A stretch of 64,000 bases of DNA from Salinivirgaceae bacterium. Lineage in GTDB: Bacteria > Bacteroidota > Bacteroidia > Bacteroidales > SZUA-534. Below the pieces are notes generated by a model. That model had not been told where the DNA came from. It saw nothing but the letters and a program-made list of their open reading frames with translations, and did no database searches. Every line of letters starts with the position of its first letter. The first letter of the stretch is position 1. The stretch is taken from assembly GCA_024405635.1 (NCBI GenBank), contig JAKSOL010000003.1, positions 64,001-128,000 on the forward strand, read 5' to 3'. This document shows positions 39-59,535 of the stretch, one piece after another. Made by a program: the position numbers and the translations under genes.

Positions 39-983
39 TTAACATTCAGTCTCTTTGCGTTTGCGCCAGAGTTGGTATGAGTTGAAACAATTTTGCCAAA
101 GCACATAAGTGCCAGCAGCAACACTCGATATTGGTTCAAGATAAGTGTATGACATCCAAATGGCAAGCACTGTGTTTTTTTGGCCTAACGATTGTCCTGC
201 ACTTATTACATCGTTGTTGCGGCGACCAATGGCCTTTCCAACAGTAAATTGCAGAGCGCACGCAAGCATACTTACCGCACTTAGTCCAAACACAATGCCT
301 ATTTGTCCCGAATCGTCAACAATCGATTTGGCTGTTTTGCCTGTTACCATTGCCAACGATACTGCCCACAAGTAAAAAGCCCAACTCGAATGGTTGTGCA
401 TCCAGTTGTAAACGGGGCGTATAATGTATCGGAAAATAACCATGAGCAAGAAAGGAAACAGCAACAATGGCAACACTTTTCCCAACATTTTTAAAAATGC
501 AGCGGTAAACACCATTCCGTCGTGTGGGTAAATAATTGGAAACACAGTTGGAACGTAAATAGCAGCAACCAAATTTATAAGCACGGTGTAGGTTATGAGC
601 GTTTCGGCGCAACCGCCAAGTTTTTGTGTTACAACCGATGCCGCAGTGGCTGTTGGGCAAATAAGGCAAACCAATGCGCCTTGTGCCAAAATGGGGTTAA
701 ACTGAGCTATCGCAATATATGCCACCGACGACACAACTACCTGAAACACAATGAACCACAAGTGCCAACGGGTAAATTTGAAATTCTTTGGCTCGGTTTT
801 ACAAAATGCTAGCAAAAGTTGCATAAAGATTAGCAACGGAGTGGCCGTTTCTTCAATTTGACGCACTGCAGGTTTTGTGGGTTCCAAAAAACTAAAATTG
901 TGAAACGCAAGGTAAATTAGCACTCCAGTAACCATTGAAATGGGAAGAGTCCAATCTTTTATAAATGTTACAACTTTGTTCAT
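39..983 (-). CDS. Bile acid:sodium symporter (BASS)-like membrane transporter
   Basis: Multi-pass hydrophobic protein with CPTATAASVVT..LGG and SAGQSLGQKNT motifs typical of this Bacteroidales family; likely ATG at 983. Confidence 0.75.
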   Translation of the reverse strand: MNKVVTFIKDWTLPISMVTGVLIYLAFHNFSFLEPTKPAVRQIEETATPLLIFMQLLLAFCKTEPKNFKFTRWHLWFIVFQVVVSSVAYIAIAQFNPILAQGALVCLICPTATAASVVTQKLGGCAETLITYTVLINLVAAIYVPTVFPIIYPHDGMVFTAAFLKMLGKVLPLLLFPFLLMVIFRYIIRPVYNWMHNHSSWAFYLWAVSLAMVTGKTAKSIVDDSGQIGIVFGLSAVSMLACALQFTVGKAIGRRNNDVISAGQSLGQKNTVLAIWMSYTYLEPISSVAAGTYVLWQNCFNSYQLWRKRKETEC

Positions 984-1181
984 TGCCAAAAAAATGAGCC
1001 GCAAAAATAAGCAGATGCCTGTTTTTTGTCACTTGTTGTCAACCATTTTTTTCTTCGTTGTATATGCCTATAAATATCACCTGTTCAGTCACATTTTTAA
1101 CCCATAATATTTGGGCATAAAACGGCAACCCTTAGGCATAACCTACACCTATTTTTGCAATAGGAATAAAAGAACGTGTAA

Positions 1182-1877
1182 ATGGGTAAATTGTACGATC
1201 AACTTGCTGAAGATGTGCGACTTGAGGAGGGATTGAATGCTTGTATGAACTGCGGCATGTGTACCGCCATTTGTCCCGCCGCCGAGTTTTATGAATACGA
1301 TCCTCGCCGCATTGCCGATATGGTTCAAAAAAAAGACGATGCTATTATTGAGGACTTGTTAAAATCGGAAACCATTTGGTACTGTGGACAATGCATGAGT
1401 TGCAAAACCCGTTGTCCGCGTGGCAACGCTCCTGGATTCATTATTCAGGCATTGCGCAAATTATCGATTAAAATGGGCTACTTTACATGTTCTGAAAAAG
1501 GTCGCCAACAATTTGCACTTAAGCGTACAATTGGCGAAAACATATTGAAACACGGTTATTGCGTGTCGCCAAAATTGGTAACTCCGTGGATGCATCCCGA
1601 ACAAGGCCCAATGTGGGAATGGTATTATAGTAATGTTGAGGGCGTTATGGCTCGTTTGGGTGGTAACTATCAGCAAGATGGTGCAGGCACAATGCGCAAA
1701 ATTAGGCAAGAGGATCTTGACGAACTTAAAAGCATTTTTGACACCACTGGCGGAACCGAAATGTATGAGGCCATTGAGCGCTTTTCTGAACAAAAAGCTA
1801 AGGAAATGGGTGTCGATTTTGAAAATGGCGACTACTTCAACCTCGTTTACCACACTAATTCTCAAAACGAAGACTAA
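1182..1877 (+). CDS. hdrC: Heterodisulfide reductase subunit C-like 2x[4Fe-4S] protein (sHdrC1-like)
   Basis: Two CxxCxxCxxxCP motifs (CMNCGMCTAICP, CGQCMSCKTRCP); stop overlaps start of hdrB-like gene. Confidence 0.85.
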   Translation: MGKLYDQLAEDVRLEEGLNACMNCGMCTAICPAAEFYEYDPRRIADMVQKKDDAIIEDLLKSETIWYCGQCMSCKTRCPRGNAPGFIIQALRKLSIKMGYFTCSEKGRQQFALKRTIGENILKHGYCVSPKLVTPWMHPEQGPMWEWYYSNVEGVMARLGGNYQQDGAGTMRKIRQEDLDELKSIFDTTGGTEMYEAIERFSEQKAKEMGVDFENGDYFNLVYHTNSQNED

Positions 1878-2926
1878 TGGAACAGGAACTTGGAAAAAAT
1901 GCTGTTTGGGCTAATTACCAAAAAGATATAGCCGACGACCATTATTATTATTGTCGCAGTTGCATCCGACAAGCTTTTTTGCCAGGCTCGGAGCGTATGT
2001 TCCTGCATATTGTTGGCAATGTTCTTGGTAAAGATATTTACGACGACCCAAAGCACACCACTTGCACAGGCATTGCTTACCACTCCGACCTTGTGCCACA
2101 AGAAACCACAGCCACTGTCATTGCTCGCCATTTTGCACTGATGACCGAAGCTGGTTACGAAAACATGGCCATTTCGTGCATCACATCGTTTGGCCTTTAT
2201 ACCGAAATTCTTGAAACTTGGAAAGAGCATCCCGAAGAAGAAGAAAAAGTTCGCGATTACTTGTGGAAAGCCACTCGCCGCGAATTCAAAATACCTAAAA
2301 ACATAGCTCATACTTCCGACATCATCTTCCACTTTCGCCACCAAATTGCCGAAAAAGCAACACGTAGATTGGTCGATGTGAATGGCAATCCGCTTAAAGT
2401 GGTTGACCATATTGGGTGCCACTACGCCAAATTGTTTCCAAGCAAAGGAGTTGGCGGTGCCGAATTTCCGTACGTGTTGGCAGGAATGGTTGATGCGTGG
2501 GGAGGCCAACAAGTTGATTATCCAGAGCGACGTCACTGCTGCGGATTTGGTTTTCGCAACTATTTGGTAATGGCAAACCGCGGATATTCGGTTGCAAACT
2601 CGCATAAAAAACTTGAGTCGATGAAACCCTATCAACCTGATTTAATTGTGGCAAACTGCCCAGGTTGCGCCATGTTTCTCGACCGTTGGCAATACACAAT
2701 TGAGCAGATGGAGGGCAAAACCTACGGTGCAAATGGCCAAGGTATTCCAGTGCTGACTTACGAAGAAATGGCAGGTTTGGTTCTAGGCTACAATCCTTGG
2801 GACCTTGGCATGCAACTACATCAAATTGATGTTGAGCCACTTTTGCTTAAAATGGGAATAGATTACAACCCTGCCGGCAAACACGAGTTGGGTGCTCGTC
2901 AACTAACCATTCCAACACTAAAATAG
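1877..2926 (+). CDS. hdrB: Heterodisulfide reductase subunit B-like CCG-domain protein (sHdrB1-like)
   Basis: One degenerate CCG domain (TCTG...CITSFG) and one canonical CCG domain (HIGCH, HCCGFGF, NCPGC). Confidence 0.85.
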   Translation: MEQELGKNAVWANYQKDIADDHYYYCRSCIRQAFLPGSERMFLHIVGNVLGKDIYDDPKHTTCTGIAYHSDLVPQETTATVIARHFALMTEAGYENMAISCITSFGLYTEILETWKEHPEEEEKVRDYLWKATRREFKIPKNIAHTSDIIFHFRHQIAEKATRRLVDVNGNPLKVVDHIGCHYAKLFPSKGVGGAEFPYVLAGMVDAWGGQQVDYPERRHCCGFGFRNYLVMANRGYSVANSHKKLESMKPYQPDLIVANCPGCAMFLDRWQYTIEQMEGKTYGANGQGIPVLTYEEMAGLVLGYNPWDLGMQLHQIDVEPLLLKMGIDYNPAGKHELGARQLTIPTLK

Positions 2927-2927
2927 T

Positions 2928-3941
2928 ATGAAACACATCGCAATAATTGGCGGAGGTCCCGCAGGAATTGAATCGGCTGCAAGCCTTGCACAACTAGGCT
3001 ACCGTGTAAGCTTGATTGAAAAATCGGCAGAGTTGGGCGGCCATTTGAGCCAAATGTTTACCCTTTTCCCCGACGGCCGAAACGCTGCCGAGGTGCTCTC
3101 TGAACTAATTGCTCATGCTCGACAAAAAAACATAAACGTAATGCTTAATACCGAAGTGATTGATGCTCAACGTAATTTGTCGGGATTTACAATCACACTT
3201 TCAAACCAAAAAACCGTTACTGCCGATGCTTTGCTTATTGCAACAGGTTTCCGTTTGTTTAATGTGGCTCGCAAAGAGGAATACGGTTACGGCATTTACA
3301 AAAATGTGATTAACAGCCTGCAAATGGAAAAGAAATTGCGCACTGGCGACCTAACCATGGCCAACGGTCAAATGCCAAAACGTGTTGTCTTTTTGCATTG
3401 CGTGGGCTCGCGCGACGAAAAAGTTGGTAATAACTACTGCTCAAAAGTTTGCTGCGTAACTGCTGTAAAACAGGCTATTGAGATTAAAAAAATGAATCCC
3501 GAAATTGAAACTTTCTGCTTCTATATGGACATTCGTATGTTTGGACCTTATTACGAGGAACTGTATCGCGAGGCCCAAGAGAAATGGAAAGTGGTGTTTG
3601 TGCGAGGAAAAATTTCAGAGGCAGCCGAAAATATCGACGGACGTTTGCAAATAAAAGCCGAAGATACCTTGATTGGAAAACCACTGCGTATGCAATGTGA
3701 TATGCTTGTGGCCATGGCCGGAATGGAATCAACTGCCGATGCCAAATTTGCTCAAACTCTTAATGTGGCTCGTGGTTTGAATCGTTTTTATAGTTCAACC
3801 GACAACTATTTGCGCTACAACAATACTAACGTTGAAGGCGTGTTTACTGCCGGAACATGCACAGCACCTATGAACATAATCGACACAATTGCCAATGCGC
3901 GTGCTGCTGCATTGAGCATTCACCAATACTTCAGCAAATAA
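2928..3941 (+). CDS. hdrA: Short heterodisulfide reductase subunit A-like flavoprotein
   Basis: GGGPAG FAD motif, CVGSRD...YCSKVCC cluster motif, YMDIRMFG; only 337 aa with no ferredoxin insert. Confidence 0.85.
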   Translation: MKHIAIIGGGPAGIESAASLAQLGYRVSLIEKSAELGGHLSQMFTLFPDGRNAAEVLSELIAHARQKNINVMLNTEVIDAQRNLSGFTITLSNQKTVTADALLIATGFRLFNVARKEEYGYGIYKNVINSLQMEKKLRTGDLTMANGQMPKRVVFLHCVGSRDEKVGNNYCSKVCCVTAVKQAIEIKKMNPEIETFCFYMDIRMFGPYYEELYREAQEKWKVVFVRGKISEAAENIDGRLQIKAEDTLIGKPLRMQCDMLVAMAGMESTADAKFAQTLNVARGLNRFYSSTDNYLRYNNTNVEGVFTAGTCTAPMNIIDTIANARAAALSIHQYFSK

Positions 3942-3944
3942 ACT

Positions 3945-4301
3945 ATGTGGGGTTATTCTATTGCTAAATCGCAAAGCATTGTGTACGACCAAAACGATCG
4001 CACAATAATCAACTACGTGCTTGAGCAAGAACCTTCGTTGCGTACATGTATGGCTTGTGGCGGTTGCACATCAACTTGCTCGGCTGGTAATCTTGTGCCT
4101 TTTAATATTCGCCGACTCAACACTTTGCTGCAACGCGGCGAGTATTCTCAGGTGAAAAAAGAGATATACAATTGCATGCTTTGCGGAAAATGTACCATTG
4201 TGTGTCCACGTGGTGTTAACATTCGCAACGTGGTGCTTAAAACACGCGAGGCTATTATGAACTCAGAAAAATCAGATGCAAATGACACAAATGCCATTTG
4301 A
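3945..4301 (+). CDS. Small 2x[4Fe-4S] HdrC-like protein
   Basis: CMACGGCTSTCS and CMLCGKCTIVCP motifs; operonic. Confidence 0.85.
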   Translation: MWGYSIAKSQSIVYDQNDRTIINYVLEQEPSLRTCMACGGCTSTCSAGNLVPFNIRRLNTLLQRGEYSQVKKEIYNCMLCGKCTIVCPRGVNIRNVVLKTREAIMNSEKSDANDTNAI

Positions 4302-6054
4302 TATATTCGTCCTTCCTTTTACGCTCGGCATGAGTTTGCTGTTTGCGTACCTTTTGCTCAAATACGCACACTGGATTTGGTTGCTTCCAACCGATGACAA
4401 ACTGCGCATCTTGAAAGGCTTTTTTAGTCAGAAGTCATTGCGAGCTTGCGGCGAGATATTTATGGAAAGTTTGCTGCACCGCAAAATCTTTAGAGTTGAC
4501 AAACGCCTTGGTTTTATGCACATGAGCCTAGCTTTTGGCTGGTTTTTGCTTATAGTTATTGGCGCAATTGAGGCACACACATACGCTGGCGGTAGCGCAC
4601 CATTCTATTTCCCTATTTTCTTCCGATTTTTTGTTCCCTACGAGGCCGATTTTTTTCTTTCATCGGTTTATGTGCAACTGATGGACGCCGCCTTGTTGCT
4701 TGTTTTAACAGGCGTAGGCATGGCATTCGCCAAACGATTTAAATCGAACATAGTGGGAATGAAAAAGACCACAAAACTTCGTCGCCGCGACAAGGCAGTG
4801 CTTTATTCTTTGTGGCTTATCTTCCCAATGCGTTTGTTGGCCGAGAGCACAACAAGTGGATTGCACAACTCGGGCGGCTTTCTTACAGGAACGCTCGGCA
4901 CCATCATGTCGTACATTTTGCCTTTGCAATATATGGAGTACCCACTCTGGTGGGGCTATTCAATAGTGTTGTGCATCTTCTTTTTGGGTTTGCCAACAAG
5001 CCGATACATGCACATTCCAACCGAAATGGTGCTCATCTTCTTCCGCAATTGGGGCATCAAGCTCCGTCCCGATAATCCAATTCTTGAAGAGGTGATGATT
5101 CTGTCGTGCCCACGTTGCGGCATTTGCATTGACCGCTGTCAACTCAATACCAATCTTAACATTAACGATACTCAGGCGGTTTATTTCTTGCAGCGCATAC
5201 GTCGAAACGAAGACTATACCGCACAAGCAAACAATTGTTTAATGTGTGGTCGATGCGCATCGGTATGTCCAGTTGGCATCGATTTAAATGCAATCCGAAA
5301 CCGACGCCGATTGAATTTTACTCCAAAAGAGGTGGTTTTGCCATACGATAATAAGCAGCAACGCCAAGCCAAAGTAGTCTATTTTGCAGGTTGCATGGGG
5401 CATCTTACGCCGCATATCAAAAACGCAATGGTGAAGATTTTGCAAGCATCGGGCGACGATTTTTGGTTTATGGACGAAGAGGGCGGAGTGTGCTGTGGCC
5501 GACCAATGAAACTTGCCGGGCAGGTTGATGCCGCTCGTCAGTTGATGGATAAAAATCGTGCCACTATTTTGCAAAGCGGTGCTACAGTTTTAGTTACGTC
5601 GTGCCCAATTTGCTATAAAGTTTTTAAAGAAGAATATAATCTGAATATCAGCATTTTACATCACACTGAATACATTGAGCAGTTACTAAAAAGCGGAAAA
5701 CTAAAAGTTACTCGTCAAGATATGATGGCGGTTTATCATGACCCTTGCGAATTAGGTCGTGGCAGTGGCATTTATGAGCAACCTCGCAATGTTTTGTCAG
5801 CAGTGGCAAACCTAACTGAAAGTAGCAACGAGCGCCGCGACTCGCTTTGCTGTGGTGGTAGTTTGGCCAACCTTACTCTGCCATCGGCAAAAAAACACGA
5901 ACTGGCAAAGCAAACCATGCAAGTGCTTACTGCCAACAATCCCGATTTGGTAGCAACAGCCTGCCCATTGTGCAAACGAACTTTGCAACGTGCTGGCGAC
6001 ACTTTGGTTATGGACATTGCCGAAGTTGTTGCTAAAGCAATGGAATGCAAATAG
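4276..6054 (+). CDS. Membrane-anchored Fe-S oxidoreductase (TM domain + 2x[4Fe-4S] + two CCG domains; HdrE/HdrD-like fusion)
   Basis: N-terminal TM helices with His (FMHMS, RYMHIP); CPRCGICIDRC, CLMCGRCASVCP; AGC/CCG/SCPIC and HDPC/CCGG/ACPLC. Confidence 0.82.
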   Translation: MQMTQMPFDIFVLPFTLGMSLLFAYLLLKYAHWIWLLPTDDKLRILKGFFSQKSLRACGEIFMESLLHRKIFRVDKRLGFMHMSLAFGWFLLIVIGAIEAHTYAGGSAPFYFPIFFRFFVPYEADFFLSSVYVQLMDAALLLVLTGVGMAFAKRFKSNIVGMKKTTKLRRRDKAVLYSLWLIFPMRLLAESTTSGLHNSGGFLTGTLGTIMSYILPLQYMEYPLWWGYSIVLCIFFLGLPTSRYMHIPTEMVLIFFRNWGIKLRPDNPILEEVMILSCPRCGICIDRCQLNTNLNINDTQAVYFLQRIRRNEDYTAQANNCLMCGRCASVCPVGIDLNAIRNRRRLNFTPKEVVLPYDNKQQRQAKVVYFAGCMGHLTPHIKNAMVKILQASGDDFWFMDEEGGVCCGRPMKLAGQVDAARQLMDKNRATILQSGATVLVTSCPICYKVFKEEYNLNISILHHTEYIEQLLKSGKLKVTRQDMMAVYHDPCELGRGSGIYEQPRNVLSAVANLTESSNERRDSLCCGGSLANLTLPSAKKHELAKQTMQVLTANNPDLVATACPLCKRTLQRAGDTLVMDIAEVVAKAMECK

Positions 6055-6072
6055 AAAAGCCAGCGTAAATAA

Positions 6073-6112
6073 AAAAGCCGCTTTCAAAATTTTTTTTTTG
6101 AAAGCGGCTTTT
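6073..6112. terminator. Bidirectional intrinsic terminator
   Basis: aaaagccgctttcaaaa...ttttgaaagcggctttt hairpin between convergent genes. Confidence 0.85.
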
Positions 6113-6130
6113 CATTTATAATCAAGAATG

Positions 6131-6637
6131 TTACTCTTCGCTCTTTTTAGCCGATTTTTTAGCAGCAGTTTTCTTTGCTTTAGGTTTTTCTTCAGCAACA
6201 GGAGCCTCTTCAACCTTTGCTTGTTCTGCCTCTGCAGCAACTTCATCGTCTTTGTCAAGCTCTGAAAGTAGGTTGTTAGCTTGCAGAATGTTGTACCATG
6301 TCAACACTTTTTTAATGTGCGAAACATAAACACGATCTTGGTCATAGTTTGGCATAGCCTCAAGAAAATAACTTTTCAAGGTTTTGTCGTCAGACTTTGC
6401 GCTCACAGCTGCACCACCATTTTCTTTTGCACGAATTGCTTTAAATACGTCAACTAGTGGCATATCGGTGCCGTCGTTGCAAAAAATTGCAATATCGCCC
6501 ATTGAGCTGATTTTTGACGTGGCAAAAGCTGGCATACGTTTTTTAGTCTCAACATTCTCAACCAATACACCGTTTTTGGTGCTCGAAATAAGTTTGAATA
6601 AACCTGAATAGCCCGAAATGGCTAAAATGTCTTTCAT
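6131..6637 (-). CDS. DUF5606-family conserved Bacteroidota protein
   Basis: ILAISGYSGLFKL start, PNYDQDRVYVSHIKKVLTWYNIL motif, acidic/Lys-Ala tail. Confidence 0.75.
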   Translation of the reverse strand: MKDILAISGYSGLFKLISSTKNGVLVENVETKKRMPAFATSKISSMGDIAIFCNDGTDMPLVDVFKAIRAKENGGAAVSAKSDDKTLKSYFLEAMPNYDQDRVYVSHIKKVLTWYNILQANNLLSELDKDDEVAAEAEQAKVEEAPVAEEKPKAKKTAAKKSAKKSEE

Positions 6638-6814
6638 ATTGTTTTCGTTTTAAAATTCTGGTGGCAAATGTATCAATTATTGCAAATCGTCAATCAAACT
6701 GATGCGGCAAAACGCGTGAGTGAATTTGTCTGCATTATTATTTTGTTCGTCAATTAAAATCGTTCATTTATATGTCAAATTGTGGCTTTTCGTATTTTTG
6801 CGCAATTTATATAC

Positions 6815-49271: not shown

Positions 49272-50186
49272 TTACCGATAAGCAAATTTTCGGTATTCGG
49301 TGGGAGTGATGCTCGTAAAACGTTTGAAGAAGTTGGAGAGATGGGCTTGCGACGAAAATTCAAGTTCGTAAGCTATTTCTTGAATGGTTTTGTCGGTTAG
49401 TAGTAGCTCTTTTATTTTGTTTAAAAGAGTGTTGTCTATTATCGATTTTGGCGACTGTGATGCTACTTTTCGAGTTACTTGCGATAGGTATCGGGCCGAA
49501 ACGTTAAGTCGCGATGCATAGTAATTTACATCGTGGCTGTTTTTGCACTCGTCGGTTTGCATGGCTGTAAAACTGCTATATAGAGTAATGCAACGGCTTG
49601 AGTTTTCGGGGTTTACGTTTGTCGGAAGCATGAATTTTGCCTTTTTTTCGGCCTTGTCAAGAGTCATTTCTTGGCATAGCAAAGTTGCAATGGTTGAGCA
49701 CAATTCGTTGCATCGGCCGTGGCTATCGTCGGCTACAATGGTGTGTTCGGCTATAAAGTGGTTGCTATCGCGCTTGCGAACAACAACAGCATGGCACAAA
49801 GGAATTAGTTTTTGCTGAATGCGGTCAATCAGTTCGTCGCTCATCATCATCTCCTCGTGGCTTGAGTAAACCACAGGCGAAAACAGAACCCACTGCGGTT
49901 TGTATCGCACTATGCAGCGTATTATGGCATCAAGTGTGTAAATGTTGCGTATCAGTCCTATTTTGAAAACAAAAGGCGAAAAATCTTCGGCAACAGCATC
50001 TATCTGGCGTTCAACCATTTCGGCAGGAATGTCAAAATAATCTTGAATGCCAAGCGTGTTTTGCATTGTGAGCGTAGTGATTACCGAAAGAGCCTTGCCT
50101 CCAAGTCCAGTTATGGTTTTTATGTCGGCTTGTATTCCAGCACCTCCAGCGCTATCCGATCCTGTTATTGTAAGTGTTGCGTTCAT
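49272..50186 (-). CDS. ThiD-like (HMP kinase) domain fused to an AraC HTH; probable transcriptional regulator
   Basis: TITGSDSAGGAGIQADIKT, TMQNTLG, KIG at the N-terminus; YYASRLNVSARYLS...TIQEIAYELEFSSQAHLSNFFKRFTSITPTEYR at the C-terminus. Confidence 0.85.
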   Translation of the reverse strand: MNATLTITGSDSAGGAGIQADIKTITGLGGKALSVITTLTMQNTLGIQDYFDIPAEMVERQIDAVAEDFSPFVFKIGLIRNIYTLDAIIRCIVRYKPQWVLFSPVVYSSHEEMMMSDELIDRIQQKLIPLCHAVVVRKRDSNHFIAEHTIVADDSHGRCNELCSTIATLLCQEMTLDKAEKKAKFMLPTNVNPENSSRCITLYSSFTAMQTDECKNSHDVNYYASRLNVSARYLSQVTRKVASQSPKSIIDNTLLNKIKELLLTDKTIQEIAYELEFSSQAHLSNFFKRFTSITPTEYRKFAYR

Positions 50187-56723: not shown

Positions 56724-58061
56724 ATGAAAAATTTCAACCAACTCTTAATGGTGCTGCTCATGGCGGTTACAATGTCGTCGTGTGCTTCGTTAACTAGTAT
56801 GAATTCATATTATAACGATGCGTATTATAATCCAAGTGTAAAAGCAACTCCTGTTGCACAACAACCAGTTACTACTCAAGAGCAATCTTCTGAAAAATCA
56901 ACTGTTTCTGATGATGCAACTGCTGCGGTTGCTGACGAAGAAATGGGCGACATTGAACGCCGTTTGGTTCGCTTTAGCGACGATTATAATGGCGCTTATT
57001 TTACTGAAGAAGAAAAAGAAGCCAATGTTAATGTGTATCTCAATGTAGTAAACGATGGTTGGGAACTTGGTTGGTATCGTCCATTGTATAGCGATTTTTG
57101 GTGGAACTCCTCATACTACTATGGCTCATATCGTTTTGGTTATCCTTATTATGGATATTACTATCGTCATGGCTATTATATGTATGGTTTGTATGATTAT
57201 CCGTATTTTGACTATGCGTTGACATCTTACTATGGTTATCCTTACTATTATGGATATCCATACTATTATTACCCAAATTATGGTCATCACCATCATCATT
57301 GTGGTTATCCATACTATCATTATCACAATAATTATGGTTTTGCAACCAATACAAGCCATACAATGAATTCGTCACGCAGAATGTCGCAAACAACAAATTC
57401 TCGTTTTGAGGATGTTGAGGCTCGTATGAATTTGGGAGGAAGTACTCGTGCATCGCGAGGAGGAACAACCTCGGCAATAAAAAATGTTAAGCCAGCCCAA
57501 GGTATAAGAAACAACGCTGCAGCTAGTCATATTTCATCTGATAGAACTCCAACCACGGTTTCAAAAAATAGTGGTTCTAAATTGTCAACTGAAAGTAAGC
57601 GCACTAACTCGCATATTAAGTCACAAGGCACGGGTCGTGGACCAATTGTTTCGCCTTCAACTTCTTCAACCACTCAAACACGACAAGGCACAATACAACA
57701 ACGTGCTGAGCGTCAAAAGGAGTCTCAACAACGAGCAATGCAACAACGTACTACAACCACAACTCAAACTCAACGAGTTAGTACACAACCACAACGTGCA
57801 ACTACAACCACTCGTTCTACAACAACAGGTGTACGCACAAATACTTCGTCGGGTGTGCAACAACGTAGTCATGTAAATACAACAAACCGTTCAACAAGTA
57901 CACAAAACCGAAGCAATCCTACTCCTCGAGTTCAAAATAGTTCAACAACACCGCGTACAAGTACCCCTTCATACAATAGCGGAACACGTTCAAGTGGAGG
58001 TTCTTATGGTGGAGGATCTCACTCAAGTGGTGGTTCTCATTCAGGAGGTCGTGGCCGTTAA
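56724..58061 (+). CDS. Low-complexity lipoprotein (Tyr-rich core, poly-His, Ser/Thr/Arg/Gln-rich tail)
   Basis: Lipobox MSSC, NDAYY motif, GYPYYY repeats, HHHHH, disordered tail ending SGGRGR. Confidence 0.75.
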   Translation: MKNFNQLLMVLLMAVTMSSCASLTSMNSYYNDAYYNPSVKATPVAQQPVTTQEQSSEKSTVSDDATAAVADEEMGDIERRLVRFSDDYNGAYFTEEEKEANVNVYLNVVNDGWELGWYRPLYSDFWWNSSYYYGSYRFGYPYYGYYYRHGYYMYGLYDYPYFDYALTSYYGYPYYYGYPYYYYPNYGHHHHHCGYPYYHYHNNYGFATNTSHTMNSSRRMSQTTNSRFEDVEARMNLGGSTRASRGGTTSAIKNVKPAQGIRNNAAASHISSDRTPTTVSKNSGSKLSTESKRTNSHIKSQGTGRGPIVSPSTSSTTQTRQGTIQQRAERQKESQQRAMQQRTTTTTQTQRVSTQPQRATTTTRSTTTGVRTNTSSGVQQRSHVNTTNRSTSTQNRSNPTPRVQNSSTTPRTSTPSYNSGTRSSGGSYGGGSHSSGGSHSGGRGR

Positions 58062-58089: not shown

Positions 58090-59535
58090 ATGAAACTAAA
58101 GTTTTTTTCTGTATTAACATTGGCATTATTGGCTTTTGCATCCACAGCGCAAAATATCGACGATGCCATTCGTTATAATTATTTGGCTCCAGTTGGTTCT
58201 GCAAAATCTGTAGCAATGGGTGGCGCTCTTGGGTCCATTGGTGCCGACATTTCTGCGGTGTCAACCAACCCTGCAAGTGTTGGCGTTTTTCGAACTAATT
58301 ATTTTTCTTTCACGCCATCGTTCAATATGAGCAAAAGTACTGCGTCGTATTATGGAAATGATTCAAAAGTGAGCAAGAGCAAGTTCAATATGTTTGACGA
58401 TGTTGGTGTGGTTTTTTCGCTTGATACTGAACGCGAAAAGGGGTGCAAAATGGTTAACTTTTCTTTTGCATACGATAAATTTCACGATTTTCGTTTGAAT
58501 AGGATGAATGTTAGTGGAGCCAATAATAAGGGGTCGTTTCTTGATGGCGAGGTTTATTATTATTGCGAAAATCCTAGCGACGATAATATGTATTTAGAGG
58601 CTGGTGCTATCCTTATTGATACTTTGGCTAACGAGTGCTTTAATAGTTATCAAGAATATGGCCAGTATGGTTCTACTCAATTGTATGAAGAAAAACCTTC
58701 GGGCTCAATAGGAGTATTGAATTTTAGCATTGGTTGCAATTTAAACGACAAATTCTATATCGGAGGCTCGCTTGATATTTATGATGTGAACTATTCTATG
58801 GATAGCCGTTTTAAGGAAGTGTCAATGCTTCCTACTGATTTTGAAAATCTTTCGCTCAGCAAGTATTTTTCGTCCAAAGGTTCAGGTGTTGGAGTAAAGT
58901 TGGGTGGCATTGTTTGGCTTAACCAATTTGTTCGTGTTGGAGCTGCAATGCATTCGCCTGTGCTACTATCAATGAACGATGTGTTTAATAGTCGCGAAAC
59001 AGTTTCAACAACATACATTAAAACACCAAATCAAGGTTCGTCGTACGACGACTTTAAATGGACAATGACTTTGCCTGGCAAACTAGTAGGTAGTGTGGCT
59101 ATGGTTATCCCTAGTTTTGCAATGTTGTCGGTCGATTGTGAGTATGTAAACTATGCCAATACATCAATGGATGATGGAGATGACGAAATTTTTTCATACA
59201 ACTCGTTAAGTGGTGTAAATGACGAAATTGAACAAACATTGCACAACGCGCTTAACCTTAAGGCTGGTGCCGAAATTAATTTAGGTCCTGCTGTTGTTCG
59301 TGGCGGATTTGCTTACTTTGGTAGCCCTTACAAAAGTGGCGAAGTAAACGAGTCGGCTAAAAAAATGGTATATAGTGCAGGTATAGGATTTGGAGGAGCC
59401 GTTGCTTCTTTTGATTTGGCATATAGGTTTGAACATAACAAACTAAATAGTAGAATATATTCAACCAACGATAGCCAATATGTATTAAAGAATAATATTG
59501 GATCTGTTGTAGCAACTTTTGGTTTCCGATTTTAA
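58090..59535 (+). CDS. OmpP1/FadL-like outer-membrane beta-barrel
   Basis: Signal peptide, GSAKSVAMGGALGSIGAD...NPASVGVF, amphipathic strands, C-terminal GFRF. Confidence 0.82.
   Translation: MKLKFFSVLTLALLAFASTAQNIDDAIRYNYLAPVGSAKSVAMGGALGSIGADISAVSTNPASVGVFRTNYFSFTPSFNMSKSTASYYGNDSKVSKSKFNMFDDVGVVFSLDTEREKGCKMVNFSFAYDKFHDFRLNRMNVSGANNKGSFLDGEVYYYCENPSDDNMYLEAGAILIDTLANECFNSYQEYGQYGSTQLYEEKPSGSIGVLNFSIGCNLNDKFYIGGSLDIYDVNYSMDSRFKEVSMLPTDFENLSLSKYFSSKGSGVGVKLGGIVWLNQFVRVGAAMHSPVLLSMNDVFNSRETVSTTYIKTPNQGSSYDDFKWTMTLPGKLVGSVAMVIPSFAMLSVDCEYVNYANTSMDDGDDEIFSYNSLSGVNDEIEQTLHNALNLKAGAEINLGPAVVRGGFAYFGSPYKSGEVNESAKKMVYSAGIGFGGAVASFDLAYRFEHNKLNSRIYSTNDSQYVLKNNIGSVVATFGFRF

What the first reader, a model, noticed from the sequence alone, without database searches (positions are those of the whole stretch)
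1182..6054. sHdr-like heterodisulfide-reductase operon with a membrane anchor in a fermentative Bacteroidota
Seen: a tightly coupled five-gene operon hdrC-hdrB-short hdrA-small ferredoxin-TM/Fe-S/CCG fusion with its own terminator. HdrA is only 337 aa and lacks ferredoxin inserts. HdrB has a degenerate first CCG domain (TTCTG...SCITSFGLY) and CCGFGFR in the second. Knowledge (from memory of the family): the C-B-short-A order and these motifs match the sulfur-oxidising sHdrC1B1A of Hyphomicrobium/Acidithiobacillus better than methanogen HdrABC. No MvhD, hydrogenase, Flx, lipoate-binding protein, TusA or DsrE genes lie nearby. Inference: an uncharacterised sulfur-redox complex, possibly running in reverse to reduce disulfide, persulfide or polysulfide with electrons from the membrane.
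Basis: partly seen in the sequence, partly recalled or inferred. Interest (0 to 1): 0.72.

Follow-up and report, generated by a model that had tools for sequence, protein, structure and literature searches.

The report
Quinone-linked Hdr-like operon in Bacteroidales
Five tightly packed genes encode an uncharacterised iron-sulfur flavoenzyme, related to heterodisulfide reductases, that is probably wired to the membrane quinone pool; it occurs in about a third of Bacteroidales families and its substrate is unknown.

Summary
In detail: five co-oriented, abutting genes (1182-6054) end in a strong hairpin. They encode HdrC-like, HdrB-like, short HdrA, a small 2x[4Fe-4S] ferredoxin, and a membrane protein. 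The membrane protein has a NarI-like cytochrome b domain, two cubane clusters and two complete CCG domains, and its model matches mycobacterial EtfD (9OJN) over its whole length.

All five genes keep this order in 67 of 80 named Bacteroidales loci. The membrane protein occurs in 53 of 151 genomes sampled across the order. The same five genes, in order, occur on an Altiarchaeales-labelled contig, there followed by a GcvH-type lipoate-binding gene.

It is not a member of the sulfur-oxidising sHdr system. There is no sHdrH, and this 99.78%-complete genome has no LbpA/GcvH, lipoate assembly, TusA, DsrE or DsrC. It is also not canonical HdrABC: every score is far under the cut-offs and there is no MvhD.

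Best reading: a membrane-anchored Hdr-like complex that passes electrons between a cytoplasmic thiol/disulfide or sulfane-sulfur couple and menaquinone, most likely towards menaquinone and fumarate reductase. The substrate is not known.

Two earlier notes of this scan reached the same reading on other genomes. My searches found no printed description.

The parts
1150..1157 (+). Possible Bacteroidota-type -7 promoter element (TAnnTTTG), 25 bases before the first start codon
   Evidence: The motif is not enriched in the window (78 found, 84 expected), so only its position speaks for it. The consensus itself is recalled, not taken from a call. Weak.
1182..1877 (+). HdrC-like subunit (231 aa): two cubane [4Fe-4S] motifs plus a C-terminal extension
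   Evidence: Fer4_8 at 1.8e-11. HdrC NF041779 scores 96.5 bits against a cut-off of 350. Methanogen HdrC chains give E 7e-13. Eight Cys plus C127 are invariant and H138 is present in 99% of 67 sequences.
1877..2926 (+). HdrB-like subunit (349 aa): complete C-terminal CCG set, altered N-terminal set (3 of 5 Cys)
   Evidence: CCG Pfam hit on residues 178-269 only. HdrB NF041780 scores 140.8 bits against a cut-off of 450. 9sfi_C scores 95.9 bits. C29, C63, C101 and C181, C221, C222, C261, C264 are invariant in 63 sequences; positions 62 and 104 are T/S and S.
2928..3941 (+). Short HdrA (337 aa): FAD plus one [4Fe-4S], no ferredoxin inserts
   Evidence: 6TJR sHdrA scores 210.6 bits in one stretch, 1-331 to 1-336. 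Methanogen HdrA scores 213-231 bits in two pieces. C158, C171, C175 and C176 are invariant in 78 sequences.
3945..4301 (+). Small 2x[4Fe-4S] ferredoxin (118 aa), like the N-terminal half of HdrC; stands in the position of sHdrC2
   Evidence: Fer4_8 at 9.6e-9. TIGR03290 scores 44.1 bits against a cut-off of 160. Eight Cys are invariant in 54 sequences. It is conserved between HdrA and the membrane gene.
4276..6054 (+). Membrane subunit (592 aa): five long helices with invariant H68, H82 and H246, two cubane motifs and two complete CCG (noncubane cluster) domains; HdrDE/EMO/EtfD architecture
   Evidence: Pfam gives CCG x2 and Fer4. 9ojn_A scores 65.2 bits. The model has pLDDT 87.8 and pTM 0.78. 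Foldseek's top hit is 9ojn at E 4.3e-20, TMq 0.66, over 752 columns.
6073..6112 (.). Hairpin terminator shared with the convergent downstream gene
   Evidence: 17-pair stem with 6 G-C pairs and a T/A run in the loop.

Best explanation
The five genes encode one membrane-anchored Hdr-like iron-sulfur flavoenzyme.

Shown: the domain make-up of each subunit, the conserved cofactor ligands, the conserved gene order across two domains of life, and the presence of a menaquinone pool and fumarate reductase in this genome.

Inferred: the last protein is an HdrDE/EMO/EtfD-type module. Its heme b (ligands H82/H246) and two cubane clusters connect menaquinone in the membrane with a pair of canonical noncubane clusters on the cytoplasmic side. 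A short-HdrA flavoprotein core, probably a dimer by analogy with sHdrA, joins two arms. One arm is HdrC-HdrB, a soluble site with one canonical and one altered noncubane-cluster site. The other arm is the small ferredoxin, which leads to the membrane subunit.

The complex moves electrons between a cytoplasmic thiol/disulfide or sulfane-sulfur couple and menaquinone. Because menaquinone is more positive than most thiol/disulfide couples (recalled potentials), the likely direction is thiol or persulfide oxidation feeding menaquinone and then fumarate reductase.

In this organism the substrate is not a lipoyl carrier protein, DsrC or TusA, because none of these is encoded. What the substrate is remains unknown.
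For: Subunit identities.

Membrane subunit: the confident model matches EtfD 9OJN over its whole length. The EtfD heme ligands His78/His241 (paper passages) align with H82/H246 here (that stretch is not significant on its own), and both are invariant. Both CCG sets keep five Cys, unlike EtfD, which has Thr and His at two positions and is called non-catalytic.

One unit: the genes abut or overlap. All five are in order in 67 of 80 genome loci and in 24 of 26 Bacteroidota-type metagenome loci with enough flank. The same five are in order on contig L102, whose HdrB is identical to a protein named Altiarchaeales.

The module goes with quinone anchors: the sister peat group has C-B-A followed by an Fe-S/NrfD fusion and a molybdopterin oxidoreductase.

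This genome: MenA scores 236 bits and the fumarate reductase cytochrome b 224 bits, both over their cut-offs. The operon's two CCG proteins are the only ones in the genome.

Expression: contigs of an RNA library cover 27 of 30 bins at 99% identity or more and bridge the C/B and B/A junctions.
Against: There is no biochemical datum for any member of this family. Physical association of the subunits is not shown.

The N-terminal site of HdrB lacks two of five Cys, so that subunit may only carry electrons or may do other chemistry.

No substrate candidate is linked in this genome, and neighbours differ between clades.

In 5 of 80 loci the HdrA homolog lacks the full partner set although the flanks have room: it stands alone in L076 and L080-L082, and with HdrB only in L091. 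So HdrA can work in other contexts.

The RNA-library contigs cannot exclude DNA carry-over and give no strand or level.

The heme count and the quinone site rest on a model and on homology only.
Confidence: 0.6

Rival explanations
1. Quinone-dependent flavin-based electron bifurcation or confurcation. The FAD of short HdrA splits an electron pair from a mid-potential donor between menaquinone (through the ferredoxin and the membrane subunit) and a low-potential acceptor reached through HdrC-HdrB, or runs in reverse. This would be an Hdr-based analogue of the Fix/EtfABCX logic.
For: HdrA is the bifurcating subunit of methanogen Hdr (established knowledge, recalled). Two separate Fe-S arms leave one flavoprotein. 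One arm ends at the quinone pool. Anaerobes of this kind need reduced ferredoxin.
Against: Short HdrA lacks the ferredoxin domains that carry the low-potential branch in methanogens. No ferredoxin- or NAD(P)H-binding module is encoded in the operon. No data exist.
Confidence: 0.15
2. The membrane protein is the cell's ETF:menaquinone oxidoreductase (EMO/EtfD function), taking electrons from EtfAB and acyl-CoA dehydrogenase. HdrCBA plus the ferredoxin would be an additional or alternative input module.
For: Its only solved relative is EtfD. It is the only EMO-type protein in a genome that has EtfAB next to an acyl-CoA dehydrogenase. All 53 operon-positive genomes of the order sample have ETF.
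Against: ETF is also present in 87 of the 98 genomes that lack the protein, so ETF in this order does not need it. etfAB is on another contig, never in the operon. Both characterised EMO/EtfD proteins have an altered distal cluster, and the papers say the clusters are not catalytic sites, whereas this protein keeps both canonical five-Cys sets. Linkage to HdrCBA is conserved across domains.
Confidence: 0.12
3. A non-sulfur dehydrogenase of the CCG-protein kind (lactate/glycolate/glycerol-3-phosphate/succinate type), in which the noncubane clusters only carry electrons to quinone.
For: CCG domains serve such enzymes, and the EMO preprint lists GlcF, GlpC, D-iLDH and SdhE clades (section read). 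The fifth protein hits TfrB, LdhH and GlpC models weakly. The second-best fold match is a LutA model.
Against: All those hits are far under their cut-offs. No substrate-binding dehydrogenase subunit (LutB/C, GlpA/B, GlcD/E, SdhA) is in the operon. In the tree, the HdrB subunit nests among HdrB sequences.
Confidence: 0.08
4. A true member of the sulfur-oxidising sHdr pathway, in which sulfane sulfur bound to a lipoate-binding protein is oxidised to sulfite.
For: C-B-short-A order with a C2-like gene and then a CCG protein. The Altiarchaeales-labelled copy is followed by a GcvH-family gene.
Against: This 99.78%-complete genome has no GcvH/LbpA, and the weak hit is a biotin carrier. It has no lipoyl synthase or LplA/LipB domain, no TusA, DsrE or DsrC and no sHdrH gene. 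In the order sample, 4 of 53 operon-positive genomes lack GcvH.
Confidence: 0.03

Closest known systems
sHdr, the sulfur-oxidising heterodisulfide-reductase-like complex (type I shdrC1B1AHC2B2; type II shdrC1B1AHB3-etfAB-emo; Tanabe et al. 2024, PMC11094781, passages read)
   Same: The gene order is C, B, short A, then a C2-like ferredoxin, then a CCG protein. HdrA has the sHdrA architecture (6TJR end to end). Type II clusters also end in a membrane EMO that is proposed to pass electrons to menaquinone.
   Different: There is no sHdrH. There is no free B2 or B3; a membrane-fused HdrD-like protein stands there instead. There is no etfAB in the cluster. The genome has no LbpA, lipoate assembly, TusA or DsrE. 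HdrB has only 3 of 5 Cys in its first domain. The host is an anaerobic fermenter.
HdrDE, the membrane-bound heterodisulfide reductase of Methanosarcina
   Same: A NarI-like cytochrome b, two cubane clusters and two complete noncubane-cluster (CCG) motifs. The EtfD and EMO papers show that HdrDE models superpose on EtfD/EMO.
   Different: Here it is one fused polypeptide. It is linked to an HdrCBA-like module and to menaquinone instead of methanophenazine. The host makes no CoM or CoB as far as is known (recalled). No HdrD/HdrE sequence was compared directly.
EMO / EtfD, ETF:(methyl)menaquinone oxidoreductases (9OJN, PMC13083937; S. aciditrophicus EMO, bioRxiv 10.64898/2026.08.18.745454)
   Same: The three-domain fold matches over the whole length. 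The heme b ligands align. It is a single polypeptide.
   Different: EtfD has Thr in place of the second Cys of the CC pair and a His ligand, and EMO has a [4Fe-5S] distal cluster. Both papers state that these clusters are not catalytic sites. This protein keeps Cys407 and has Ile445 at those positions. Its partner genes are hdrCBA plus a ferredoxin, not etfAB.
DsrMK(JOP) and QmoABC of sulfate reducers
   Same: Hdr-related cytoplasmic subunits are coupled to a quinone-interacting membrane cytochrome b. Qmo uses short HdrA-like flavoproteins (recalled).
   Different: The DsrK model scores 59 bits against a cut-off of 400, and qmoC scores 49 against 300. The genome has no DsrC and no sulfite reductase. 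Qmo has no CCG subunit (recalled).

Membership tests
sHdr type I | Syntenic shdrC1-B1-A-H-C2-B2 cluster (criterion in Tanabe et al. 2024) | tested here: not met
   C, B and A are present. There is no H gene between A and the ferredoxin (3-base gap). There is no free B2; a 592-aa membrane fusion stands there.
sHdr type I/II | A lipoate-binding protein LbpA and lipoate assembly genes in the genome ('inevitably associated', Cao et al. 2018 abstract) | tested here: not met
   GCV_H scores only 18.9 bits, on a biotin carrier beside OAD beta/gamma genes. LipA scores 21.9 bits against a cut-off of 310, and LplA-B_cat gives no hit. The genome is 99.78% complete.
sHdr type I/II | Accompanying sulfur transferases TusA and DsrE-type (Tanabe et al. 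2024 abstract) | tested here: not met
   PF01206 and PF02635 give no hit. One rhodanese lies on another contig, and that family is not diagnostic.
sHdr type II | shdrC1B1AHB3 and etfAB in one syntenic cluster | tested here: not met
   etfAB lies on contig C2 beside an acyl-CoA dehydrogenase, not in this operon. There is no B3-type soluble fusion.
sHdr | Short HdrA with FAD and a single [4Fe-4S] cluster | tested here: met
   One end-to-end stretch to 6TJR at 210.6 bits, with four invariant cluster Cys.
sHdr | Subunits group with bona fide sHdrC1/B1/A in a phylogeny | not testable with these tools
   No sHdrB1/C1 sequence from a known sulfur oxidiser could be fetched. None of the 30 representatives whose clusters I looked up carried such a name.
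Canonical HdrABC (methanogen type) | Scores over the NCBIfam equivalog cut-offs | tested here: not met
   HdrC scores 96.5 against 350, HdrB 140.8 against 450, and HdrA2 260.7 against 1100.
Canonical HdrABC (methanogen type) | Long HdrA with N-terminal and inserted ferredoxin domains, and MvhD or another electron-input partner | tested here: not met
   HdrA is 337 aa and matches methanogen HdrA in two pieces only. FlpD/MvhD PF02662 gives no hit in the genome.
Canonical HdrABC (methanogen type) | HdrB with ten cluster Cys (two noncubane clusters) | tested here: not met
   Positions 62 and 104 are T and S. The more distant HdrBs in the same alignment have all ten.
HdrDE/EMO/EtfD-type membrane NCB proteins (fifth protein) | NarI-like helical membrane domain, two-cubane domain and two CCG/NCB domains in one chain or pair | tested here: met
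   Pfam domains. Five long helices in the model. Whole-length fold match to 9OJN.
HdrDE/EMO/EtfD-type membrane NCB proteins (fifth protein) | Heme b bound by two His of the membrane domain | tested here: inconclusive
   H82 and H246 are invariant and align with EtfD His78/His241, but that stretch of the alignment is not significant by itself. No cofactor can be seen with these tools.
EMO/EtfD (functional subfamily) | Altered, non-catalytic distal cluster and ETF as electron donor | tested here: not met
   Both CCG sets are canonical. No etf genes are linked.
DsrMK | DsrK equivalog score and DsrC substrate in the genome | tested here: not met
   DsrK NF045796 scores 59 bits against a cut-off of 400. 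PF04358 gives no hit.

The most novel reading that the evidence does not exclude
The complex is a new class of quinone-coupled, Hdr-based electron-bifurcating (or confurcating) enzyme. Short HdrA splits electrons between the menaquinone pool, through the ferredoxin and the HdrDE-like membrane subunit, and a low-potential or thiol-based acceptor at the altered HdrB site. That would give many anaerobic Bacteroidales, and some archaea, a previously unknown link between thiol or sulfur redox chemistry, ferredoxin and respiration.
Probability: 0.15. Interest if true: 0.85.

Novelty: new variant of a known kind. Interest (0 to 1): 0.6.

Why it matters
Hdr-type enzymes are central to energy conservation in methanogens, sulfate reducers and sulfur oxidisers. 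Here a distinct, membrane-wired version appears in about a third of sampled Bacteroidales families, including rumen lineages where RNA-library contigs cover it, and in an archaeal-labelled lineage.

It is one of very few candidate inputs to the menaquinone/fumarate-reductase chain of these fermenters, and it has never been assigned a substrate. Finding the substrate could change how electron flow, succinate/propionate formation and sulfur or thiol handling are modelled in gut, rumen and sediment Bacteroidales.

The three contexts of the same HdrCBA clade make the question experimentally approachable: an HdrDE-like anchor, an NrfD/molybdoenzyme anchor, and a soluble C2-B2 form.

Tried and rejected
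- Complex prediction (HdrA + cytoplasmic part of the membrane protein + ferredoxin as partner) returned 'no answer'. The median score was 0.73, but a control with HdrA replaced scored 0.78. It is evidence neither way.
- ETF co-occurrence was uninformative because ETF is in 140 of 151 genomes. GcvH co-occurrence showed no association: 49 of 53 operon-positive genomes against 92 of 98 operon-negative ones.
- DsrC beside stand-alone HdrA in L076 looked like a lead, but the two genes between them are thymidylate synthase and GDP-mannose dehydratase. I rejected it.
- I tested whether the membrane protein's CCG domain is the ortholog of the soluble B2-like protein of L105. This is not supported: that protein hits the window's HdrB at 52 bits and the membrane protein at 28.5 bits. 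The correspondence is positional only.
- The sigma-70 promoter scan was at chance (12 found, 11.2 expected). TAnnTTTG is not enriched.
- Rfam found no family and ARAGORN no tRNA in the window.
- The protein atlas returned mostly Bacteroidota clusters, presumably this protein's own family, plus one Thermodesulfobacteriota cluster at 0.91.
- RNA run X2 holds only small pieces, 7 of 30 bins. I draw no conclusion from it.
- Ernst et al. 2021 (FEBS J) is not held.
- The first tree run ended on the time limit with only a quick tree.

Full report

One search lists five + strand ORFs at exactly the stated coordinates: 1182-1877 (231 aa), 1877-2926 (349 aa), 2928-3941 (337 aa), 3945-4301 (118 aa) and 4276-6054 (592 aa). 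The genes overlap or are at most 3 bases apart. A 17-pair hairpin with a T run (6073-6112) separates the last gene from a convergent gene. A TAnnTTTG element lies 25 bases before the first ATG. That motif is not enriched in the window, so this is a weak pointer.

**What the proteins are**

- **Protein 1** carries two cubane [4Fe-4S] motifs and is HdrC-like.
- **Protein 2** is HdrB-like, but the Pfam CCG model hits only its second half.
- **Protein 3** is an HdrA flavoprotein. It aligns end to end with the 349-aa sHdrA structure 6TJR (210.6 bits, one stretch). Methanogen HdrA chains of 654-658 aa match in two pieces around their inserted ferredoxin domain, at similar scores of 213-231 bits.
- **Protein 4** is a 2x[4Fe-4S] ferredoxin resembling the N-terminal half of HdrC.
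- **Protein 5** has a hydrophobic N-terminal half, a dicluster domain and two CCG domains.

Every NCBIfam hit is far under its curated cut-off: HdrC 96.5 against 350, HdrB 140.8 against 450, HdrA2 260.7 against 1100, DsrK 59 against 400, and qmoC 49 against 300. So none of the proteins is an equivalog of a named enzyme.

**Conserved ligands** (54 to 78 sequences per subunit)

- Proteins 1 and 4 keep all eight cubane Cys.
- HdrA keeps the four cluster Cys.
- HdrB keeps the full C-terminal set (C181, C221, C222, C261, C264) but only C29, C63 and C101 in the N-terminal domain. The alignment with methanogen HdrB shows that the CC pair falls on positions 62-63 and the CxxC on 101-104, so Cys 62 and Cys 104 are replaced by T and S. 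The three remaining Cys, and H69, are invariant. This is therefore a fixed alteration, not decay.
- Protein 5 keeps eight cubane Cys and both five-Cys CCG sets, plus invariant H68, H82 and H246 in the membrane half.

**The membrane subunit**

Its only sequence match among solved structures is 9OJN (65.2 bits). An AlphaFold model built on 36 sequences is confident (pLDDT 87.8, pTM 0.78, five long N-terminal helices). Its best fold match is 9OJN over the whole length (E 4.3e-20, TMq 0.66, 752 columns).

9OJN is M. smegmatis EtfD. It has five TM helices, one heme b bound by His78 and His241, two cubane clusters, a linear [3Fe-4S] cluster and a His-ligated noncubane cluster. The noncubane cluster is described as non-catalytic (PMC13083937, passages). 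A preprint on S. aciditrophicus EMO describes the same three-domain plan, a NarI-like membrane domain, and similarity to HdrDE (sections 5 and 10 read).

In the alignment, H82 and H246 fall on EtfD His78 and His241. That stretch is not significant alone. EtfD's Thr539 position is Cys407 here, and its His583 position is Ile445. So the protein has the EMO/EtfD/HdrDE architecture but the canonical, Hdr-type pair of noncubane-cluster motifs.

Twelve of 66 family members, including the window, also have His at positions 101 and 197. Whether these bind a second heme is open.

**Conservation and host**

An HdrA-based scan of one genome per species gave 198 confirmed loci, of which the best 80 were kept. 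The nearest are rumen MAGs labelled Salinivirgaceae. Others are labelled Marinilabiliales, Prolixibacteraceae (including Gaoshiqia sediminis and Mangrovibacterium), Lentimicrobiaceae, Rikenellaceae and Butyricimonas.

The synteny count over those 80 loci is:

| Outcome | Loci |
|---|---|
| All five genes in the window's order | 67 |
| Cut by a contig or locus end | 8 |
| Room available but partners missing | 5 |

The five in the last row are HdrA alone in L076 and L080-L082, and HdrB plus HdrA in L091.

In the rumen clade, 8 of 12 loci have 0.7-2.9 kb inserted between HdrA and the ferredoxin gene. In L015 the insert is a Listeria-Bacteroides repeat protein.

Flanking genes (purL, peptidases, DUF3788, DUF3795, PAP2, a lipoprotein-like 183-aa ORF) are conserved only within subclades.

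Across 151 genomes drawn evenly from the order, the membrane protein is found in 53, and in 52 of the 138 high-quality genomes.

**Beyond Bacteroidota**

An exhaustive search of 1.84 billion representatives with HdrB found only 722 hits at E <= 0.001 and 58 at E <= 1e-30. I looked up cluster names for 30 of the 38 listed hits of 285 aa or more. The nearest named cluster is Altiarchaeales HdrB (46% identity), followed by Methanomassiliicoccales, Halobacteriota, Methanosphaera and Bacillota. None is named as an sHdr subunit of a known sulfur oxidiser.

The careful maximum-likelihood tree has 52 rows. It leaves out the 112 hits shorter than 285 aa, four truncated or chimeric hits, one full-length own-family representative, and one picked locus that failed the length filter. 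Its main groupings are:

- The Bacteroidota family has 100/100 support.
- Its sister is a peat-metagenome group (97/90).
- These two plus the Altiarchaeales-labelled group form a 100/100 clade, nested among HdrBs whose named members are mostly archaeal.
- Ser at position 104 marks the whole clade. T/S at position 62 marks the Bacteroidota and Altiarchaeales groups.

**Three contexts of that clade**

1. Contig L102, whose HdrB is identical (351 of 351 residues) to the protein named Altiarchaeales WOR_SM1_86-2, has all five genes in the window's order at 39-47% identity. A GcvH-family gene (130.8 bits) follows 47 bases after the membrane gene.
2. L105, of the same archaeal-type group, has C, B, A, a 210-aa C2-like ferredoxin, a soluble 290-aa protein with two CCG domains and all ten Cys, and an FAD disulfide-oxidoreductase-like protein. 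That is the soluble C1-B1-A-C2-B2 pattern.
3. The peat group has an Fe-S protein, then C, B, A, then an Fe-S/NrfD fusion and a molybdopterin oxidoreductase.

Among metagenome loci with enough flank, 24 of 26 Bacteroidota-type loci and 2 of 11 others have the full five-gene order.

Thus the same HdrCBA clade is joined either to a soluble C2-B2 pair or to one of two unrelated quinone-interacting anchors. The B2-like protein is not the ortholog of the membrane protein's CCG domain, so the correspondence is one of position.

**Test of sHdr membership**

Tanabe et al. 2024 define type I by syntenic shdrC1B1AHC2B2 and type II by shdrC1B1AHB3 with etfAB. [quoted passage not shown] Cao et al. 2018 call the link to LbpA inevitable (abstract).

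The window's genome (2.66 Mb, 99.78% complete) gives these results:

| Feature searched | Result |
|---|---|
| TusA | no hit |
| DsrE | no hit |
| DsrC | no hit |
| Sulfite reductase domain | no hit |
| MvhD | no hit |
| Lipoyl synthase | 21.9 bits against a cut-off of 310 |
| LplA/LipB domain | no hit |
| GcvH | 18.9 bits, on the biotin carrier of an Na+-decarboxylase |
| Rhodanese | one, on another contig |

In the order sample, 4 of 53 operon-positive genomes have no GcvH. The operon is therefore not a member of the sHdr system, although it is organised like one. A lipoyl carrier cannot be its general substrate in Bacteroidales.

**Context for a mechanism**

The genome encodes MenA (236 bits) and the b558-type fumarate reductase cytochrome b (224 bits), both over their cut-offs, and no cytochrome bd. 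The two CCG proteins of the operon are the only ones in the genome. EtfAB is present beside an acyl-CoA dehydrogenase on another contig.

All 53 operon-positive genomes have ETF, but so do 87 of 98 operon-negative ones. An ETF link is therefore neither excluded nor needed.

Contigs of a metatranscriptome library cover 27 of 30 bins of 600-6800 at 99% identity or more and bridge the C/B and B/A junctions. DNA carry-over cannot be excluded, and contigs give no strand or level.

**Most likely mechanism (inference)**

The model is a short-HdrA core with two Fe-S arms: HdrC-HdrB, and the ferredoxin leading to the membrane subunit. The membrane subunit's cubane clusters and heme b connect to menaquinone.

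Menaquinone is more positive than typical thiol/disulfide or sulfide/sulfur couples (recalled values, about -74 mV against about -200 to -300 mV).

The canonical two-cluster site sits in the membrane subunit. The altered site in HdrB may do different chemistry or only carry electrons.

I give 0.6 to the quinone-linked thiol/sulfur redox reading as a whole, 0.15 to a bifurcating or confurcating version, 0.12 to an ETF:menaquinone role, 0.08 to a non-sulfur dehydrogenase, and 0.03 to true sHdr function.

**Novelty and limits**

Full-text searches found no description of this operon:

- sHdr + Bacteroidetes: 0 papers.
- Heterodisulfide reductase + Bacteroidales + hdrA: 12 papers. I read passages of two of them, and neither concerns a Bacteroidales Hdr-like system.
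- Heterodisulfide reductase + Marinilabiliales: 0 papers.
- Hdr-like + Bacteroidota + menaquinone: 0 papers.
- Altiarchae + heterodisulfide reductase: 21 papers. Passages of two gave only generic HdrABC statements.

Subscription journals are mostly not covered.

Two earlier notes of this scan (e1-3227151 and e1-2419542) describe the same operon in other Bacteroidales genomes with the same reading. They are not independent evidence.

- the comparison with the EtfD/EMO structures;
- the cross-domain five-gene copy with an adjacent GcvH gene;
- the soluble and NrfD-linked sister contexts;
- the exclusion of lipoate metabolism in this host.

No sHdrB1, sHdrC1, HdrD or DsrK sequence could be placed in a tree, and nothing here is biochemical.

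Noticed in passing
L102:11666-12082 (+), 47 bases after the membrane gene of the Altiarchaeales-labelled five-gene operon: A GcvH-family lipoate-binding protein gene (PF01597, 130.8 bits) directly follows the operon. This is the protein class that sHdr systems use as LbpA. Whether it is an LbpA-type or an ordinary GcvH was not resolved.
   Followed up: partly
L125:4683-13450 (also L124, L132, L134, L137, L138, L147): A sister group of the HdrCBA module from peat metagenomes is followed by a fused Fe-S/NrfD membrane protein (509 aa) and a 949-aa molybdopterin oxidoreductase, and is preceded by a 436-aa Fe-S protein. This looks like a Psr/Phs-type module joined to Hdr-like subunits. The phylum is unknown.
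   Followed up: partly
L105:1271-7786: An archaeal-type locus has the soluble layout HdrC-HdrB-HdrA(368 aa), then a C2-like ferredoxin (210 aa), a two-CCG protein with all ten Cys (290 aa) and an FAD pyridine-nucleotide-disulfide-oxidoreductase-like protein (435 aa).
   Followed up: partly
L031, L034, L037, L046, L048, L061, L062 (2.5-5 kb upstream of the operon, opposite strand): Fen and peat Bacteroidales carry a divergent cluster of a DsrE/DsrF/DrsH-like protein (PF13686), DsrC and a 410-aa FAD oxidoreductase near the operon; in L031, L046 and L048 a cysteine-desulfurase-like aminotransferase is also seen. It occurs in one clade only, and the window's genome has none of these sulfur carriers.
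   Followed up: partly
L015:10078-11355, L020:2178-4830 and 6 further rumen-clade loci: In 8 of 12 rumen Salinivirgaceae-type loci, 0.7-2.9 kb is inserted between HdrA and the ferredoxin gene. In L015 the insert is a Listeria-Bacteroides repeat (Flg_new) protein on the same strand. The window itself has no insert.
   Followed up: partly
L076, L080, L081, L082 (termite-gut MAGs): A 49%-identical short HdrA stands alone, directly after thymidylate synthase and GDP-mannose dehydratase genes, with none of the other four subunits detected in the locus.
   Followed up: partly
window 4276-6054, residues 101 and 197: His at both positions in 12 of 66 family members (the window, the rumen clade and L027), at the outer ends of helices 2 and 4. 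Most others have Asp/Tyr. This is a possible second heme site in this subclade.
   Followed up: partly
35 related loci, e.g. L034:12350-12898 (+): A conserved ~183-aa ORF with a lipoprotein-like N-terminus and no Pfam match directly follows the membrane gene in environmental Bacteroidales. It has no counterpart in the window.
   Followed up: partly
window 6131-6637 (-): The convergent downstream gene encodes a DUF5606/DUF6852 protein with a Lys/Ala/Glu-rich tail. Its function is unknown.
   Followed up: no
window 49272-50186 (-): A 304-aa ORF joins the first half of a phosphomethylpyrimidine kinase domain (profile positions 1-123 of 246) to an AraC-type HTH, which is an unusual fusion.
   Followed up: no
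window 56724-58061 and 58090-59535 (+): Two adjacent ORFs of 445 and 481 aa have no Pfam family at E <= 1e-5.
   Followed up: no
whole genome G000: This rumen-type Bacteroidales genome (2.66 Mb, 99.78% complete) gave no hit for GcvH, lipoyl synthase, the LplA/LipB domain or cytochrome bd. All of these ring in the Bacteroides thetaiotaomicron control.
   Followed up: partly
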